A DNA stretch of 64,000 nucleotides, from the sequence record KT454805; one strand, given 5' to 3'. Below are positions 5,717 to 29,511 of this stretch, one piece after another. This stretch comes from Escherichia phage phiSUSP1. How positions within the stretch are numbered: the stretch's first letter is position 1; each line of letters begins with the position of its first letter. Below the pieces are notes generated by a model. The model was not told the DNA's origin, did not search any database, and was given only the letters and a program-made list of their open reading frames with translations. Both the position numbers and the translations under genes were made by a program.

Positions 5717-6826
5717 ATGGCATTAACTAATTCTGAAAAAAGCAGATTTTTCCTTGCTGACCTGACTGGTGAAGTCCAGTCTATCCCAAATACTTATGGT
5801 TATATTTCCGGTTTGGGTCTTTTCCGTTCTGCCCCAATTACTCAGACCACTTTCCTGATGGATTTAACTGAGTCTGACATTAGCTTACTGGATGCAGTAG
5901 ACCGTACCAGCCGTAAAGCTGAGACGAGTGCTCCAGAGAGAGTTAAGCAGATTAGCTTCCCAATGATGTACTTCAAGGAAGTGGAAAGCATTACTCCTGA
6001 TGAAATTCAGGGTGTACGTCAGCCAGGCACTGCAAACGAACTGACTACTGAAGCTATCGTTCGTGCTCGTAAGCTGATGAAGATTCGTACCAAGTTCGAT
6101 ATTACTCGTGAGTTCTTGTTCATGCAAGCTCTGAAGGGTAAAGTAATCGACGCTAACGGTGTTCTGTACGCTGACCTGTTCAAGCAGTTCGACGTTGAGA
6201 AGAAGACTGTTTACTTCGACCTTGACAATCCAAACGCTGATATCGACGCTGCTATCGAAGAACTTCGTATGCACATGGAAGATGAAGCTAAAGTTGGTAC
6301 TGTAATCAACGGTGAAGAAATTCACATCGTTGTTGACCGTCTGTTCTTCAGCAAGCTTATCAAGCATCCGAAGATTCGTGACGCATACCTTGCACAACAG
6401 ACTCCGCTGGCTTGGCAGCAGATTACTGGCTCTCTGAGAACTGGTGGTACTGATGGCGTTCAGGCGCACATGAACACATTCTACTACGGTGGTGTGAAGT
6501 TCGTTCAGTACAACGGTAAGTTCCAAGATAAGCGTGGTAAGACTCACGTTCTGGTAAGCATCGACGGCGTAGCAAACACTGTAGGTGTTGGTCATGCGTT
6601 CCCTAACGTTTCTATGTTGGGTGAAGCTAACAACATCTTCGAAGTTGCATATGGCCCATGTCCTAAGATGGGTTATGCAAATACTCTTGGTCAGGAACTG
6701 TACGTATTCGAATACGAAAAAGACCGTGACGAAGGTATTGACTTCGAAGCTCACTCTTACATGCTGCCATACTGCACACGTCCTCAGTTGCTGGTAGACG
6801 TTCGTTCTGACGCTAAACCAGACTAA
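5717..6826 (+). CDS. major capsid protein
   Basis: 369 aa ORF in canonical position after protease/scaffold; strong RBS GGAGAAT; high-expression codon look. Confidence 0.7.
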   Translation: MALTNSEKSRFFLADLTGEVQSIPNTYGYISGLGLFRSAPITQTTFLMDLTESDISLLDAVDRTSRKAETSAPERVKQISFPMMYFKEVESITPDEIQGVRQPGTANELTTEAIVRARKLMKIRTKFDITREFLFMQALKGKVIDANGVLYADLFKQFDVEKKTVYFDLDNPNADIDAAIEELRMHMEDEAKVGTVINGEEIHIVVDRLFFSKLIKHPKIRDAYLAQQTPLAWQQITGSLRTGGTDGVQAHMNTFYYGGVKFVQYNGKFQDKRGKTHVLVSIDGVANTVGVGHAFPNVSMLGEANNIFEVAYGPCPKMGYANTLGQELYVFEYEKDRDEGIDFEAHSYMLPYCTRPQLLVDVRSDAKPD

Positions 6827-11301: not shown

Positions 11302-13540
11302 TGGCACAATATACAGTTGATAGCTTTATTGTGGAGTTGGGTTTCAGTGAAAAGGTTGTTAAAGGTTTGCAGAGAGTTGAAAGGATGGCTATGCAGTCTG
11401 CTCAACGAATCGAACGTAATATTAACAAAGCCTTTGACGTGAAACCTAATAAGTCTTCACAGGAAGCATTAAACAGAATTGTAAAAAACGCTCAGACTGC
11501 TTCGGGCAGAATCAATAAAGCACTCAACAACTCCCTTAACCTTGATTCACAAGGTGTTAAATCTCTTAAAAGACTGGAAACTCAAGGTAGAAAAACTGCC
11601 AAGGAAATTAACAAGGCTTTAAGAGACGCTATGAAAGTTGATGGAAAAGTCACTGTTCGTGGTGGTAGAAAAGGTGGTACTGGTTTCCCTCCTACTGGTG
11701 GAAGTGGTAACCCAAGACCTCCAAGACCTGATATTGCTCAGAGACAGATGGAAAGAATGTTTAACAACAACTTCTACTCTGGTCTGACACGTCGCCTTGA
11801 AACTATTGGTGGACAAGGTAACCAAATGGCAGCTTCCTTCAGAGGAAACCTGCAAGGTCTTTATAACAAATATAAGGGAACTGGTAAAGTCGGTGAATAT
11901 GAGATGGAAGTCAAAAAGCTCATTGACGTTACCAAGCGTTGGGTTATTGCAGAAAATGCTAGACTCAAGTCAGTCAGAGAATCAGCTTGGCTTCAGGAAA
12001 GAGCTAACTCATCTCTACGTCAGATGATTGGTGGTTTTGTTTCAGCTTATGCAGCCTTAGAATTGGCTCAGAAGACTATTGATGCAGGTGTTAAAAGACA
12101 GTCTGCACAGTTAGCCTCAACAGCTATCTTTGGAGCAGATACACAGCAAGCTAGAATGTTCGCTGCATCGTTTGCTCATCAGATTGGACAGAACTACACA
12201 GACACCATGAAGCAATACTCAAACTTTGCTGCTGGTGCTCAACCTGCTCTTGGATTCCAAGGGACTCAGGAGTTCTATAAGAATGCTGCGATGTTCTCCC
12301 GTATCAGGGGTGCAACAGACGAAGACCTGAAAGGTATCATGGTTGCTTTCCAACAGATGGCTTCTAAGGGTAAGATTCAGGCTGAAGAACTTCGTGGTCA
12401 GTTAGGTGACCGTTTGGCAGGTGCTGTACAGTTATTTGCTGATGCTATCGGTAAGACACCACAAGAACTTGATAAGATGATGAAGGACGGTAAACTCCTT
12501 GCTGAAGATGTACTTCCAAAGGTATCTGAAAAGATGGCTGAGTTGGTACAGGCAGCAGGTGGTATGAATGCCGTATCTAAGCAGACAGCTACCTCAATGG
12601 GTCAAGCGAAGTCTATGTGGGATAACATGTTAGTTGCATTGTTTAATAACTCTAGCGACGGTATTTCACAGCTTTCACAATCCATTGCAATGTTCTTACA
12701 AGGTTCTATGGGTACTGCTGAAGCACTTGGCACAGTGATTGGTTACCTGTTAAAAGGTGCTGGTAACTTACTTGACTTCGTAACAGATATCATGTATAGA
12801 ACATCTTCACTGTATTACTCTGCAATGGCATGGTACAAGGATTTGGATGCAAGTCAACAGAAACTTATCAAGGATTCTGCTGAACTAGTTTCAACCTTTG
12901 CTATGATTGGTGTTGCAATTGCTGCTATTACGAAGGTTGCAAAAATCTTTGGCGGTACTGTAGCATTCGTTAAGAGTATCTTTGAAGAAGGTATCTTTGC
13001 AAAAATTATGCAGAAGTTTGGTTTAGGTGGAGCAGCAGCAGCCTCTGAAGCAGCAGGTGTTGCAGGTGTATCAGCAACTAGGATGGCTCTCGGTACAGTT
13101 GGTTCATCACTGATGTTGTCCGGTTCTACAGACAGAAAGAACAATGGTAGATTCAGTGAAGTTGACCTTCCAAAACCTTTTGAAGACGCTGTATCAAGCA
13201 TCACCAACCCTAAACGTCCAATGTTCTTTGACCAGAATGGACAGCTACAGTTTGCACAATATTCTGTAGATGCTCAAGGTAATCGTAGCTTTGTTGATAA
13301 TGGAATGTCCAATTGGGATATTATCATGAACAACTTGTCAGAGTCTTTAAACAACTTTGCAACTAAGTTCAACCAAACCCCAATGATGATGACGCCTTCT
13401 GGTTTCCCTATGCAGACTAGACAGACTCTGAATGTTTCATTCAATCTGGATGGTAAGCAGATTGCTACTAAGACGGTTGATATCATGGACAAGAACCAAG
13501 AAGATATCCTTCTTAACTCAAGTTACCCAGAGGAAGAATA

Positions 13541-13541
<1 letters not shown>
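11301..13541 (+). CDS. tail tape measure protein
   Basis: 746 aa, helical/coiled-coil composition, Gly/Ala-rich hydrophobic segments, position after the chaperone pair. Confidence 0.8.
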
Positions 13542-16697
<3,156 letters not shown>

Positions 16698-16698
<1 letters not shown>

Positions 16699-18167
16699 TG
16701 GCTGGATTAACCGCAACAGGATTACAAACACTGAGGTATCAAGAAATCTTTGATAATATCAAAGCAAGACTTTTAAGAGATATCTCCCCAAACCTTGACG
16801 TATCTGAGGACAGCCAATTAGGTCTGTTCTTAGCATCAGTAGCAAGAGCCTTGGCAGATACCCATGAAGTTCTGTCTGAAATTTATGATGGTAACACCAT
16901 TGACAAAGCTGAAGGATTCAACCTAGATGATATCACAGCCTTAAACGCAATCTACAGATATGTTGCTCAGGCTACAAGAGGACAGGCTGAATTTACTGGT
17001 ACAACTGGTGCTTCAATTCCTGCAACCACAAGACTGAGAAGTACTGCTGGTAATATTTTCTATCCAGTTTCTACGTTCACGCTAACACCATCTTATTGTG
17101 TTGAAGCGGTTCTAGAAGTTAACTCTTTACGTACTGATGCAAACTATGTTATTATTATTGATAACGTTGTTTTCTCTTATCAACCTACATCTTCAGACAC
17201 TATTACGACTCTACTAAATGAACTTGCAGATGCGATTAATGGTGGTATTGTTGCGAAAGCTGAGGTTATTAATGGTGGCTCATCTCTAAGAATCTACAAA
17301 GATGAAGGGGATATTATTGCAAGAACAAACCCTATGGTTGTTACTGCAACGACATTCTTAAGCTTTACGAAGATTACTACAATTCATGATGTAGTTGCTG
17401 AAGAGGTTGGTGCTATGCCAGCTTTGGCAGGAACTCTGATTGAGATTGAAACGACTGTAGATGGTCTTGACAGTGTATTTAACAGATACGACCTGACAAC
17501 AGGACGTGATGAAGAAAATGATACAGAACTTCGCCAGCGTTACCTAGAGTCTTTAACCGTTACTGGTGTAGGTACTTTAGATGCTATTGTTGCTGCTGTC
17601 AAGAGAGTTCAGGGTGTGTCAGACGCTTCAGGTGTAGAGAACGACACTGAGACAACAACTTCTGACGGTATTCCTCCGAAATCTTTCAAGATTGTTGTTG
17701 TAGGTGGTCAGAACGATAACGTTGCTCAAGCTATCTGGGATACTAAACCTGCTGGTATCAGGGCTTATGGTTCTATCTTCGGAACTGCATATGACCTTGG
17801 AGGATTGGCTCATAATGTTTACTTCAGCAGACCAACGCCTAAGTATGTCTTTGTGAAGGTGACTTACGAGTTGTACGATGAAGAAAGCTTGACAATCCCT
17901 GAAGAAGATATTCATGACAGCATTGTACAGGGTATTAACGATTATGGCAGAACCCTGAAAGTTGGTAATGACGTGATTCCTAACAGAATCTATGGATACA
18001 TCTATGATGTTATTCAGGGGATTGAAATCAACGAAATTAAAGTTGCCCTTTCAAATAACCAAGCAGTTCCACCAACAGATGACCAGTACACTACTTCGAG
18101 AATCACAGTTGATGGTGACCAGTATACGGTATGGGAAAGCAGCCAGTACACTATCACTAAGGAGTAA
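16698..18167 (+). CDS. baseplate J-like protein (putative)
   Basis: 489 aa; position. Confidence 0.45.
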
Positions 18168-26621: not shown

Positions 26622-26951
26622 TTAATCTGACAGCCTTAAGTTAAAGTTAACACCAAGTTTTTCACAAGCTTTCAACATGTATTCAAGGGTAATCTTTCCA
26701 GTACCGTTGACAATGTTGGAAACACGACTTTGAGAGATATCACAAATCTTTGCGACTTGTGCCTGAGAAAGTTTTCTTTTCTCAATTTCTTTTTCAAAAC
26801 GGAATGCAACGAACTCTCTCATTTCGTCTACATCCATTGGACAGATATAACTTGCCATCTCATACTCTCTATCAGCTTCCCACTTATCTTGTGGAGCATA
26901 AGGGTCAAAGACTTCATTCATCTTTCTTCCTCCGTTTTCTGGAAGTGTCAA
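26622..26951 (-). CDS. HTH (XRE-like) DNA-binding protein
   Basis: helix-turn-helix-like segment LSQAQVAKICDISQSRVSNIVNG. Confidence 0.5.
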   Translation of the reverse strand: MTLPENGGRKMNEVFDPYAPQDKWEADREYEMASYICPMDVDEMREFVAFRFEKEIEKRKLSQAQVAKICDISQSRVSNIVNGTGKITLEYMLKACEKLGVNFNLRLSD

Positions 26952-27499: not shown

Positions 27500-27543
27500 A
27501 ACTCACCTCATATAAAATTTTGTATACATTCAAGTATAAAAAT

Positions 27544-27582
27544 AAGCTATAACACCTGACTTGTCAACAGATTTTATAGCTT
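27544..27582 (-). promoter_or_regulatory. minus-strand promoter region with -35 TTGACA flanked by a 9-bp inverted repeat
   Basis: TTGACA on minus strand at 27563..27568; AAGCTATAA (27544..27552) and TTATAGCTT (27574..27582) are perfect reverse complements; -10 is not clean. Confidence 0.35.
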
Positions 27583-27602
27583 ATTTGGCAGATTTTTTAT
27601 AA

Positions 27603-27753
27603 GGCTACTGCCATCCTTCCATACCTCACCACACAAGACCAGACCATGCCGTACTCCACTTCACAGGACCAAGCATCACTTAAAAACCCTCTTAGAAGAC
27701 TCTTAAGTGGTGTAAGTCTCATTTTAATGTAGCTGAGACTAACTACCCATACC
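27603..27753. repeat. regulatory repeat module copy 1: CA-rich tract + 36-bp element A + 42-bp hairpin element B
   Basis: element A 27674..27709 is identical to 29230..29265; element B 27712..27753 repeats at 27855..27896 with 1 mismatch; plus strand almost lacks G across the CA-rich tract. Confidence 0.75.
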
Positions 27754-27816
27754 GAACCTTACTAAACCACACTTTACCTGACTGAACCCTACCAAACATC
27801 ACCATGCCAGACCAAA

Positions 27817-28003
27817 CCTTATTAAAAGACCCTCTTCAAAGACCTTTTAAAAAGGTGAGTCTCATTTTAATGTAGCTGAGACTAACTACCCATACCAAAC
27901 CAGACCGCACCAGACAAAACCACGCCAAACCGCACCTTACCCAACCTTAACACACCAGACCCAACCTTATTAAAAGACCCTGTTTAAAGACCTTTTAAAA
28001 AGG
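27817..28003. repeat. tandem duplication of about 148 bp (element C, CA-rich tract, element B)
   Basis: 39-bp element C at 27817..27855 and 27965..28003 (2 mismatches); B copy 2 at 27855..27896. Confidence 0.7.
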
Positions 28004-28022
28004 AGCCTCCGAAGAGGCTACC
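27993..28022 (-). terminator. intrinsic terminator for minus-strand gene 28031..28471
   Basis: on minus strand, hairpin AGCCTC-ttcg-GAGGCT followed by TTTTT. Confidence 0.6.
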
Positions 28023-28030
28023 TAGTCAAC

Positions 28031-28471
28031 TTAGAAAGGCTTTCTACGTTGCTTGTTAATGTTAGCTTTCATAGCAGCTAAATGGTTTTGCTGTTCAATC
28101 AGTCGTGAACGTTCTTGATGACTAAGTGCCATAGTGTTCACATTCTCAATTGCTTGGGTGGCTTGCTTTAAAGCTCGACCAATCTTACCAGACATTTTAC
28201 GTTTTGCAATAGTTGCTTGATGTTTTGGTTCAACTACACGATAACCCACACCCATTGAAGCAACCAGATAAATCTTTTCTTCTTTAAGAAGCTTTTCGAT
28301 AAACTTCTCAAGTCGGTTTAATCGTGTCAGAGAATAAGCCTTCATCTCATCTTCGTACTTAACAATATCACCCTGATAAGTTGGCTTCACAATACCTAAG
28401 AAGGTATCCATTTCAGAGTGTGATACAGTATCACCGTAACTAAACTTTGCTGCTAATGCTTTTGTATTCAT
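28031..28471 (-). CDS. hypothetical protein (146 aa), cassette gene 2
   Basis: ORF track; basic C-terminus; no recognisable motif. Confidence 0.45.
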   Translation of the reverse strand: MNTKALAAKFSYGDTVSHSEMDTFLGIVKPTYQGDIVKYEDEMKAYSLTRLNRLEKFIEKLLKEEKIYLVASMGVGYRVVEPKHQATIAKRKMSGKIGRALKQATQAIENVNTMALSHQERSRLIEQQNHLAAMKANINKQRRKPF

Positions 28472-28473
28472 AA

Positions 28474-29079
<606 letters not shown>

Positions 29080-29149
29080 TTAGTTGATTGTTAAGTTGTT
29101 TGTAAAGAACCCTCAACAGAAGACTCTTTAGAAACTTGGTAGATTTTTA

Positions 29150-29310
29150 ACGTGGCTACTACCATCCACCCACACCAGACCAAACCTAGCCTTACCCCAC
29201 CGCACCTTACCGAACCACACCTTACCATACATCACTTAAAAACCCTCTTAGAAGACTCTTAAGTGATGCTGGTGAGTACCCGTTGGTTTATGCTGCTCAG
29301 TATACTCACC
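29150..29310. repeat. regulatory repeat module copy 2: CA-rich tract + element A + B-like hairpin
   Basis: element A 29230..29265 is a perfect 36-bp copy; 8-bp stem hairpin GGTGAGTA...TACTCACC at 29271..29310; CA-rich tract 29150..29229 shares blocks with 27603..27673. Confidence 0.7.
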
Positions 29311-29322
29311 AAATTTTCTATG

Positions 29323-29511
29323 TCAACAACTTTCTAATAAAGTTTTATAAAGATTTTGCTTAACGACTCGCCTCACATGCCTATGCTCTTTCTTAATAAA
29401 GAGTGACCTCTTCTTGATAGAGCGCCTATTCTTGTAAGTGTTGCTAGGGTACTTATCGTGACCCGGACAACAACTGCCAGGATTTGTAAACTTGATAATC
29501 TCTCTTTTCAC
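29323..29511 (-). CDS. small basic ORF (62 aa), doubtful
   Basis: GTG start overlapping ligase stop by 1 nt; lysine/arginine-rich; may be non-coding leader. Confidence 0.2.
   Translation of the reverse strand: MKREIIKFTNPGSCCPGHDKYPSNTYKNRRSIKKRSLFIKKEHRHVRRVVKQNLYKTLLESC

What the first reader, a model, noticed from the sequence alone, without database searches (positions are those of the whole stretch)
29150..29310. Second copy of the CA-rich + element A + hairpin module, upstream of the two-gene cassette
The same ordered module seen at 27603..27753 recurs here: a CA-rich tract sharing blocks (GGCTACT.CCATCC, CACACCAGACC, ACCGCACCTTACC), then the identical 36-bp element A, then a GGTGAGT-initiated hairpin (GGTGAGTA...TACTCACC). 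On the transcribed minus strand each copy lies 100-170 nt upstream of an early gene start (27499 and 29061). A duplicated 5' module on two neighbouring transcription units suggests a shared regulatory or processing signal, and the two copies bracket the cassette 28031..29061.
Basis: seen in the sequence. Interest (0 to 1): 0.65.

Follow-up and report, generated by a model that had tools for sequence, protein, structure and literature searches.

The report
Guide-RNA gene of phage VIPR system
The "CA-rich tract plus element A" module is, read on the opposite strand, the gene for a guide RNA (vrRNA1) of the recently described phage VIPR system, which probably silences a satellite element that parasitises this phage; it is real but already published.

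Summary
A 36-nt element is identical at 27674-27709 and 29230-29265, and each copy sits beside a CA-rich tract. The interpretation as a shared 5' regulatory signal misses the point.

On the transcribed minus strand, each CA-rich tract is an in-phase run of GGY-NN pentamers. The window has four such tracts: one upstream and three downstream of the two-gene cassette.

The 195-aa cassette protein is 100% identical to "SUSP1 Vipr protein" (PDB 36pp). Two 2026 bioRxiv preprints describe this system in phage SUSP1 as VIPR. Vipr polymerises on GGY/NN guide RNAs (vrRNAs) and reads DNA with a one-base skip.

Membership features I tested are met:
- GGY is conserved and NN is hypervariable across 48 unique tracts.
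- All four 3' tails can form a pseudoknot.
- The locus has the 1+3 architecture.
- Three of the four guides give ≥87% NN matches to a satellite island in E. coli strain PAR, with skipped bases at codon position 3.

Element A is a covariation-supported 18-bp RNA hairpin 5' of every tract. The text of the preprints that I searched does not discuss it. I infer a boundary or processing role.

Verdict: already known; low residual novelty.

The parts
29299..29326 (-). Sigma-70-like promoter for vrRNA1 and vipr (TTGACA, 16-nt spacer, TATACT). The predicted transcription start is near 29292.
   Evidence: 11 of 12 consensus matches. The sequence is near-invariant in 17 related genomes (one has TTGACC). 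The start position is inferred from promoter geometry.
29273..29310 (.). Its left arm overlaps the -10 hexamer, so an RNA started at this promoter would contain only the right arm. It is not homologous to the hairpin next to the other copy of element A.
   Evidence: Its role, operator or coincidence, was not tested.
29229..29270 (-). Element A: an 18-19-bp RNA hairpin with a UAA loop, immediately 5' of the vrRNA1 repeat tract. The 36 nt at 29230-29265 are identical to 27674-27709.
   Evidence: -20.5 kcal/mol, z = -5.8, against -9.7 on the + strand; 80 sense copies, 94.3% of cells paired, 8 of 18 pairs changed on both sides, conserved G-U pairs.
29170..29229 (-). vrRNA1 guide tract of 12 YNNGG repeats (11 strict GGY-NN units). 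The NN code is AT AA GT TC AA GC GG AA TA TT CT GT.
   Evidence: a single 5-nt phase throughout; the preprint reports 12 repeats for SUSP1 vrRNA1; target match in a satellite.
29137..29169 (-). vrRNA1 3' tail, an H-type pseudoknot. Stem 1 is GUGG/CCAC, stem 2 is UGGUAG/CUACCA, and loop 3 is the A-rich GUUAAAAAU.
   Evidence: the same topology, with compensatory changes, in all four window tails and in relatives; the pseudoknot is reported and resolved by cryo-EM for SUSP1.
29104..29129 (-). A-like hairpin (AAAGAGUCUUC UGUU GAGGGUUCUUU) between the vrRNA1 tail and the vipr ribosome-binding site.
   Evidence: (repeat family D4). The sequence is almost invariant in relatives (single substitutions in two genomes), so there is no covariation to assess.
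28474..29061 (-). vipr gene (195 aa), a RAMP-like protein that polymerises on the vrRNA.
   Evidence: 195 of 195 residues identical to PDB 36pp 'SUSP1 Vipr protein'; contact residues H17, K33, R39, E71, M72, K82, K88, R138, C173, D177, W178 and R179 are present; phrog_4652.
28031..28471 (-). vap1, the Vipr accessory protein (146 aa).
   Evidence: Position directly after vipr, as in the published locus. phrog_5926, no Pfam match. Identity to SUSP1 vap1 is inferred from synteny and not tested by sequence.
28004..28019 (-). Intrinsic-terminator-like hairpin after vap1. Its U-tract is the 5' arm of the next A' hairpin.
27858..28005 (-). vrRNA2: A' hairpin 27964-28005, GGY-NN tract 27892-27966 (15 units), pseudoknot tail 27858-27889.
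   Evidence: Its target matches 27 of 30 bases in the satellite tape measure gene.
27715..27857 (-). vrRNA3: A' hairpin 27816-27857, tract 27749-27818 (14 units, 4 of them degenerate), pseudoknot tail 27715-27746.
   Evidence: No target found.
27586..27714 (-). vrRNA4: element A hairpin 27673-27714, tract 27621-27673, pseudoknot tail 27586-27618 (AAGG/CCUU and UGGCAG/CUGCCA).
   Evidence: Its target matches 21 of 24 bases in the satellite serine recombinase gene.

Best explanation
Window 29137-29326, read on the minus strand, is the promoter and gene for vrRNA1, one of four guide RNAs of a type II VIPR (Viral Interference Programmable Repeat) locus.

Shown here from the sequence:
- Locus order: promoter, 18-bp hairpin (element A), 12 GGY-NN pentamers, 3' pseudoknot, A-like hairpin, vipr, vap1, terminator, then three more units of hairpin, tract and pseudoknot.
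- GGY is conserved while NN is near-random between closely related phages.
- The NN code of three guides matches a chromosomal satellite island of E. coli when one target base is skipped per unit.

Taken from the two preprints on SUSP1, whose Vipr is identical to this protein:
- One Vipr protomer binds each repeat and flips out GGY.
- The protomers present the NN dinucleotides for base pairing to double-stranded DNA, skipping every third target base, in an R-loop triplex.
- Binding represses transcription.
- Assembly appears to proceed from the 3' pseudoknot towards the 5' end.

Inferred by me: element A is not part of the guide code. It is a boundary or processing hairpin that separates adjacent vrRNAs and sets the 5' limit of the Vipr filament, possibly as a host RNase III substrate. 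Its closing base pairs use the GG or UG of the first repeat unit.
For: - Protein: 100% identity to PDB 36pp SUSP1 Vipr, with the named contact residues present.
- Tracts: four in-phase pentamer tracts, all on the minus strand, and none elsewhere in 64 kb.
- Variability: in 48 unique tracts from 19 genomes, positions 1-3 are G 0.80, G 0.96 and Y 0.99. Positions 4-5 have 1.92 bits of entropy each. Flanking sequences are near-invariant.
- Distant phages: contigs whose Vipr is 37-40% identical also carry GGT- or GGC-periodic tracts next to the gene.
- Tails: H-type pseudoknots with compensatory changes.
- Targets under the 1-nt skip rule, in the satellite of E. coli PAR (L027): vr1 matches 22 of the 26 scanned bases (21 of 24 over the 12 YNNGG units), with 20 of 20 in the centre. 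vr2 matches 27 of 30 and vr4 21 of 24. Skip values 0, 2 and 3 give background scores of 15-20 in that locus.
- Control: unit-order shuffles never reach the observed scores.
- Codon phase: every skipped base is at codon position 3 in both coding targets.
- Self-targeting: none at ≥80% NN match in the window.
- Published description of the same locus type.
- Element A. Spacing from hairpin to pseudoknot is ≡3 mod 5 in 53 of 56 unique vrRNAs.
Against: - No expression data can be obtained here. RNA ends, co-purification with Vipr and silencing are taken from preprints on SUSP1, not measured for this window.
- vr3 has no detectable target.
- The vr1 target is non-coding, unlike most published targets, and its region occurs in only 2 of 5426 complete E. 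coli genomes.
- How the three downstream vrRNAs are transcribed past the terminator at 28019-28004 is unexplained. No promoter-like site was found there.
- The role proposed for element A is untested. Keyword searches of the preprints' main text for 'hairpin', 'stem' and 'processing' found no discussion of such an element.
Confidence: 0.95

Rival explanations
1. One reading: a duplicated cis-regulatory 5' leader, such as an attenuator, protein-binding platform or processing signal. It would control expression of the genes downstream of each copy (27499 and 29061). Element A would be the key signal and the CA/GU-rich tract a passive or protein-titrating leader, like the TRAP-binding trp leader.
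For: - The upstream copy does lie between a strong promoter and vipr.
- GGU triplets with 2-nt spacers resemble the TRAP site architecture (my knowledge).
- Hairpins flank the tract.
Against: - The downstream copies lie upstream of the promoter of gene 27499, after a terminator.
- The tract letters are hypervariable between phages whose flanks are identical. A cis-regulator would not need that.
- The variable letters match foreign DNA under a specific gapped rule.
- The adjacent protein is a solved guide-RNA-binding protein.
Confidence: 0.03
2. Recombination or mobility boundaries. The repeated element A/A' copies would be att-like or homing sites that bracket a mobile two-gene cassette. The CA-rich tracts would be slippage-prone filler.
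For: - Module number varies from 1 to 3 on each side among close relatives, so recombination between repeated hairpins does occur.
- vipr homologues sit in unrelated genomic contexts in distant phages, for example next to a head protease in L025.
Against: - All 17 Felixounavirus-like relatives carry the cassette at the same position.
- G-U pairs and compensatory changes show selection on a minus-strand RNA hairpin, not on a DNA site.
- No recombinase is associated with the cassette.
- The tracts carry target-matching information.
Confidence: 0.02
3. A DNA or R-loop element. The G-rich non-template strand downstream of a promoter would act as an R-loop or G-quadruplex-forming replication origin or recombination hotspot. 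Alternatively, the C-rich + strand would act as a Rho loading site for antisense transcripts.
For: - Strong G>C skew on the transcribed-sense strand.
- GG every 5 nt could form two-tetrad quadruplexes (my inference).
Against: - It explains neither the strict Y at position 3, nor the conserved pseudoknot and hairpins, nor the match to satellite DNA.
- High-GC relatives use GGC units, so C-poverty is not conserved.
Confidence: 0.01

Closest known systems
Type II VIPR system of Escherichia phage SUSP1 (bioRxiv 10.64898/2026.04.26.720920 and 10.64898/2026.04.26.720927; PDB 36pp)
   Same: - Identical Vipr protein.
- A vap gene directly downstream.
- One vrRNA upstream and three downstream.
- 12 repeats in vrRNA1.
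- GGY/NN pentamers and a 3' pseudoknot tail.
- Targets in a satellite that shares tape-measure and baseplate homologues with the phage.
- Skipped bases at wobble positions.

The window is probably SUSP1 itself or a near-identical isolate. The SUSP1 record is not in the searchable collection. The closest record held, SUSP2, is 95% identical and has a different vrRNA complement.
   Different: Nothing in the defining features differs. Added here:
- Explicit coordinates.
- Candidate targets for this window's own guides in E. coli PAR.
- The covariation-supported 5' hairpin (element A). Keyword searches of the preprints' main text found no discussion of it.
Class 1 CRISPR-Cas effector complexes (Cas7/Csm3 filaments on crRNA)
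   Same: - A RAMP-fold protein polymerises along a guide RNA, and a thumb flips out bases periodically.
- A variable guide is capped by a conserved handle.
- The RNAs come in arrays of guide units separated by conserved, hairpin-forming sequences.

These comparisons are as stated.
   Different: - There is no repeat-spacer array made of contiguous copies of foreign DNA, and no cas1/cas2 or other cas genes.
- The period is 5 nt with 3 bases sequestered and 2 read, rather than 6 nt with 5 read.
- The target is read with a 1-nt skip.
- The system is phage-encoded and aimed at a satellite.
- Rfam finds no CRISPR direct-repeat family here.
TRAP-binding trp leader of Bacillus (11 G/UAG triplets with 2-3-nt spacers); comparison from my own knowledge
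   Same: A run of about 11 conserved triplets separated by 2-nt spacers, each triplet held by one protein subunit of an oligomer.
   Different: - TRAP is a closed 11-mer ring that acts in cis on attenuation.
- Its spacers carry no information.
- The protein fold is different.
RNase III processing hairpins between phage T7 early genes (analogy for element A only; from my own knowledge)
   Same: A conserved hairpin approaching 20 bp, repeated between functional RNA units of one transcript.
   Different: Cleavage of element A has not been shown. Its 18-bp stem is rich in G-U pairs and is shorter than classical substrates.

Membership tests
VIPR (type II, SUSP1 clade) | A Vipr protein (minimal RAMP fold) encoded in the locus | tested here: met
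   195 of 195 residues identical to PDB 36pp 'SUSP1 Vipr protein', E = 2e-130. The fold itself was not re-predicted here.
VIPR (type II, SUSP1 clade) | Residues that hold GGY and the DNA strands (H17, D177, R138, W178, R179, K33, R39, K82, K88) | tested here: met
   All are present at those positions. The preprint's 'T175' is V175 both here and in the PDB sequence, so that is a discrepancy in the text, not in the window.
VIPR (type II, SUSP1 clade) | A vap accessory gene next to vipr | tested here: met
   A 146-aa ORF at 28031-28471 starts 3 nt after vipr ends (phrog_5926). Its equivalence to SUSP1 vap1 is inferred from synteny. The positional equivalent in the distant locus L025 shows no significant similarity.
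VIPR (type II, SUSP1 clade) | vrRNA tracts of 9-16 tandem YNNGG repeats, with conserved GGY and hypervariable NN | tested here: met
   The window has four tracts of 12-15 units in one phase. Across 48 unique tracts the composition is G 0.80, G 0.96, Y 0.99, against 1.92 bits per NN position.
VIPR (type II, SUSP1 clade) | A conserved 3' tail forming a pseudoknot | tested here: met
   All four window tails fit one H-type topology, with compensatory stem changes between tail classes. The test rests on complementarity, not on an energy model.
VIPR (type II, SUSP1 clade) | Targets in other mobile elements under the 1-nt skip rule (≥80% NN match), with skipped bases at codon position 3 and no self-targeting | tested here: met
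   NN matches to the E. coli PAR satellite are 87.5% for vr1, 90% for vr2 and 87.5% for vr4. Other skip values give background scores. Shuffles never reach the observed scores. All skipped bases are at codon position 3. The best self-match in the window is ≤73%. vr3 has no target.
VIPR (type II, SUSP1 clade) | vrRNAs expressed as ~100-nt RNAs that co-purify with Vipr and silence targets | not testable with these tools
   Reported for SUSP1 in the preprints. There are no expression data for this window.
CRISPR-Cas | An array of identical direct repeats alternating with spacers that are contiguous copies of foreign DNA, plus cas1/cas2 or effector cas genes | tested here: not met
   The variable segments are 47-95-nt pentamer tracts, not contiguous protospacer copies. 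Contiguous (skip 0) matching gives only background. No Rfam CRISPR repeat family was found. There is no Pfam cas domain in the cassette proteins.
Cis-acting leader or attenuator (TRAP-like) | Location in the 5' UTR of the regulated gene, with alternative terminator and antiterminator structures | tested here: not met
   Three of the four modules lie upstream of the next promoter. No terminator follows the tracts; the only terminator-like site is at 28019-28004.

The most novel reading that the evidence does not exclude
Element A, and the A-like hairpin before the vipr ribosome-binding site, may be an undescribed functional component of SUSP1-clade VIPR arrays. It would be a phase-locked 18-bp RNA hairpin that brackets every vrRNA. 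It would define the 5' end of the RNA, through host RNase III or a phage factor, or cap the 5' end of the Vipr filament.

A related hairpin occurs in the targeted satellites at a conserved intergenic position. In the PAR satellite, the vr1 target overlaps the 3' arm of a hairpin at the corresponding position. This hints at a shared regulatory element over which phage and satellite compete.
Probability: 0.3. Interest if true: 0.45.

Novelty: already known. Interest (0 to 1): 0.3.

Why it matters
VIPR is a newly reported class of RNA-guided DNA recognition. It uses a gapped 2-of-5 code and is proposed to be ancestral to the CRISPR RAMP proteins. Recognising its loci in raw sequence matters for annotation: RefSeq and GenBank label these genes 'hypothetical' and leave the vrRNAs unannotated, or mark one as a bare 'repeat_region'.

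For this window the system is already described. The added value is therefore limited to three things:
- Exact coordinates of all parts.
- Candidate natural targets of this phage's own guides, in a satellite island found in strains PAR and K56-43-un.
- Evidence that a conserved 5' hairpin accompanies every vrRNA, which bears on how the arrays are processed.

Tried and rejected
- **Known RNA families:** Rfam had no hit at gathering threshold over the whole window. The region at E ≤ 10 gave only chance snoRNA-like hits. There are no tRNA or tmRNA genes.
- **Ideas dropped before the protein was identified:** TRAP-like attenuator, Rho rut site on the + strand, R-loop/G-quadruplex origin, Chi-like decoy, CsrA-type sponge, RNase III-only processing sites. 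All were dropped once the hypervariable NN, the Vipr identity and the target matches were in hand.
- **Protein families:** Pfam gives nothing for either cassette protein. PHROGs gives only 'unknown function' families.
- **Target search for vr3:** no match at or above 80% in 7 satellite loci, the window or the related phages. There were zero exact hits in IMG/VR, GTDB species genomes or JGI metagenomes.
- **Exact vr1 pattern in IMG/VR:** zero hits. The satellites are evidently not in that collection.
- **Hammerhead ribozymes in L020:** the preprint mentions hammerhead-interspersed arrays in some types, but the inter-tract element of distant locus L020 gave no Rfam hit.
- **vap1 against its positional equivalent in L025:** not significantly similar.
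- **SUSP1 record KT454805:** not in the phage collection, so identity of the window with SUSP1 could not be checked directly.
- **Supplementary data of the preprint:** not held, so the published target list could not be compared with mine.

Full report
**1. Context**

The window is a Felixounavirus/Suspvirus-type myophage genome. It is 95% identical over the region to Escherichia phage SUSP2, and more distantly related to about 250 Felix O1-like phages. Genes between about 23.5 and 35 kb are on the minus strand. The finding therefore has to be read as its reverse complement.

**2. Checking the observation**

- The 33-nt core of element A occurs exactly twice in the window, at 27677-27709 and 29233-29265. 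None is expected by chance. The exact identity spans 36 nt.
- On the minus strand, the CA-rich tracts are runs of pentamers in one unbroken phase, GGTNN with occasional GGC or degenerate xGT units.
- A scan of all 64 kb finds this periodicity only in four tracts, all in the two intergenic regions that flank the cassette 28031-29061. One tract is upstream and three are downstream.
That block is the reverse complement of a conserved RNA pseudoknot.

**3. Anatomy on the transcribed strand**

- A near-consensus sigma-70 promoter (TTGACA, 16 nt, TATACT) sits at 29326-29299.
An RNA started here would contain only its right arm (inference from geometry).
- Element A follows. As minus-strand RNA it is an 18-19-bp hairpin of -20.5 kcal/mol (z = -5.8). 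As plus-strand RNA it reaches only -9.7 kcal/mol, because four to five G-U pairs become A-C mismatches.
- Then come 12 YNNGG repeats (29229-29170) and a 33-nt tail (29169-29137).
- The tail can form an H-type pseudoknot: GUGG/CCAC and UGGUAG/CUACCA, with an A-rich third loop.
- A second A-like hairpin (29129-29104) precedes the ribosome-binding site.
- Next are the 195-aa gene, the 146-aa gene and a terminator-like hairpin at 28019-28004.
- Three further units of hairpin, tract and pseudoknot follow. The next promoter is at 27567-27539.
- The hairpin beside the first copy of element A (27715-27746) is therefore the 3' tail of the preceding unit. It is not part of the same unit as that element A.

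**4. Comparative evidence**

- In 17 related viral contigs, the promoter, hairpins and tails are almost invariant.
- The tracts differ completely in sequence, and module number varies from 1 to 3 per side.
- Over 48 unique tracts from 19 genomes, unit positions 1-3 are G (0.80), G (0.96) and pyrimidine (0.99). Positions 4 and 5 each carry 1.92 bits of entropy.
- Contigs whose homologue of the 195-aa protein is only 37-40% identical come from quite different genomic contexts. They also carry GGT- or GGC-periodic tracts beside the gene. The protein and the tracts therefore travel together.

**5. Identification**

- The 195-aa protein has no Pfam domain. It is, however, 100% identical to PDB 36pp, 'SUSP1 Vipr protein'.
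- Two 2026 bioRxiv preprints describe the system.
- VIPR loci comprise vipr, a vap gene, and vrRNAs made of 9-16 YNNGG repeats followed by a conserved tail. In the SUSP1 clade that tail is a pseudoknot.
- In SUSP1, small-RNA sequencing found one vrRNA upstream and three downstream of the genes. vrRNA1 has 12 repeats.
- One Vipr protomer binds each repeat, flips out GGY and presents NN.
- Target DNA is read two bases at a time with one base skipped, in an R-loop triplex. Binding represses transcription.
- Most SUSP1-clade guides target a satellite that shares tape-measure and baseplate homologues with the phage.
- The window matches every structural point. It is probably SUSP1 itself, but that record is not in the searchable collection.
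- The contact residues named in the cryo-EM preprint are all present.

**6. Independent test of the targeting rule with this window's guides**

- The gene following the tape measure gene (13541-14338) has 74-85% identical chromosomal homologues in 474 of 5426 complete E. coli genomes. They are annotated 'phage baseplate protein'.
- These homologues lie in roughly 12-kb islands with a tape measure gene and serine recombinases.
- I scanned seven such islands with the NN codes of the four guides, using 0-3 skipped bases.
- Only skip = 1 gave outliers, all in the island of strain PAR:

| Guide | NN match | Location in L027 | Target |
|---|---|---|---|
| vr1 | 22 of 26 scanned (21 of 24 over the 12 YNNGG units; central 20 of 20 perfect) | 11566-11603 | non-coding, between two terminator-like hairpins |
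| vr2 | 27 of 30 | 13020-13063 | tape measure gene |
| vr4 | 21 of 24 | 17041-17075 | large serine recombinase gene |

- The PAR island is also the one whose baseplate gene is closest to the phage's.
- Two hundred unit-order shuffles never reached the observed scores.
- Every skipped base in the two coding targets falls on codon position 3, as the preprint reports.
- No guide matches the window itself at or above 80%.
- vr3 has no detectable target in these loci or in three public collections.
- The vr1 target region exists in only 2 of 5426 genomes. That fits a narrow arms race with one satellite variant.

**7. Element A**

- Keyword searches of the preprints' main text for 'hairpin', 'stem', 'processing', 'leader', 'maturation' and 'processed' found no mention of a 5' hairpin or of vrRNA processing.
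- A covariance model built on seven copies finds 80 sense-strand copies in the phages and satellites. Exactly four are in the window, one immediately 5' of each tract.
- On that alignment, 94.3% of cells are paired, against 85.2% in shuffles and ≤67% when the partner is slid.
- Eight of 18 pairs show changes on both sides, and several G-U pairs are conserved. The alignment was fitted to the model, so the counts lean towards the structure. The A versus A' compensatory changes are nonetheless visible by eye.
- The last paired bases of the hairpin are the GG (or UG) of the first repeat unit.
- The distance from the hairpin to the pseudoknot is ≡3 mod 5 in 53 of 56 unique vrRNAs.
- Published vrRNAs are about 100 nt, roughly tract plus tail, and filament assembly appears to run 3' to 5'.
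- From this I infer that element A is a separator. It may be a processing site, with host RNase III the obvious candidate, a 5' stop for the filament, or both. This is inference only.

**8. Verdict**

In fact the variable tract is the payload, a guide RNA. The system is already described, most likely for this very phage, so novelty is 'already known' and interest is low. What remains open:
- the role of element A;
- the transcription of the downstream array past a terminator;
- the target of vr3;
- the A-like hairpin in the satellites.

Noticed in passing
L029 10311-10352, L033 10605-10646, L030 10400-10441, L032 10326-10367; L027 about 11541-11573: The element A covariance model also hits an A-like hairpin in the E. 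coli satellite islands. It lies at a conserved intergenic position upstream of the 'transposase'-like gene that precedes the tape measure gene. In the PAR satellite, the vr1 target (11566-11603) overlaps by 8 nt the 3' arm of a hairpin I identified by eye at the corresponding position; the model did not hit L027. This may be a regulatory element shared between phage and satellite.
   Followed up: partly
L031 (NZ_CM177078.1), about 6039-6133 of the locus, reverse strand: This satellite island carries its own GGY-NN tract, followed by a SUSP1-type pseudoknot tail (GGGTGGATTGTCGTAGCCACGTTAAAAATCGAC). tblastn finds no vipr homologue in any of the seven islands. The satellite would have to borrow the helper phage's Vipr. 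The preprint mentions satellite-encoded vrRNAs.
   Followed up: partly
window 27540-27586: A 19-nt inverted repeat (AAATAAGCTATAAAATCTG / CAGGTGTTATAGCTTATTT on the minus strand) encloses the -35 hexamer of the promoter at 27567-27539. It looks like an operator. An HTH regulator gene lies just downstream at 26622-26951.
   Followed up: no
window 28004-28019 and 27964-28005: The U-tract of the terminator-like hairpin after vap1 is also the 5' arm of the first A' hairpin. No promoter-like site precedes the three downstream vrRNAs. How that array is transcribed is unclear; read-through or mutually exclusive folding are possibilities.
   Followed up: no
L001 3100-3163, L012 and L017 4183-4246, L003 4189-4252: Some relatives have an element A copy with a roughly 22-nt insertion in the loop (for example CATTACTTAAGAGCC...GGGTTTTTAAGTAATG). 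The stem is kept, and the model still scores it at 40-42 bits.
   Followed up: no
L020 4100-5100; L021 3550-3650; L022 3545-3870; L025 2865-2979, 3553-3780, 4254-4320: Distant VIPR loci vary in form. High-GC phages use GGC units. L022 and L025 place long tracts between vipr and the next gene. L020 has at least seven short tracts separated by a conserved ~50-nt element (GGTTCTCTGAACGAAGCCGCTTCGCAAGAGGCGGTTTCCTTGAGCGAATC) that matches no Rfam family, including hammerhead.
   Followed up: partly
window 28474-29061, residue 175: The cryo-EM preprint names 'T175' as part of the pyrimidine pocket. Residue 175 is valine both here and in the deposited 36pp sequence. This is probably a slip in the text.
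   Followed up: yes
L003, L004, L007, L011, L016, about 2440-2610, compared with window 29327-29510: Between the ligase gene and the vrRNA1 promoter, relatives carry one of three arrangements: nothing, a ~190-nt non-coding stretch as in the window, or a small hydrophobic ORF. This is a variable spot just upstream of the VIPR locus.
   Followed up: no
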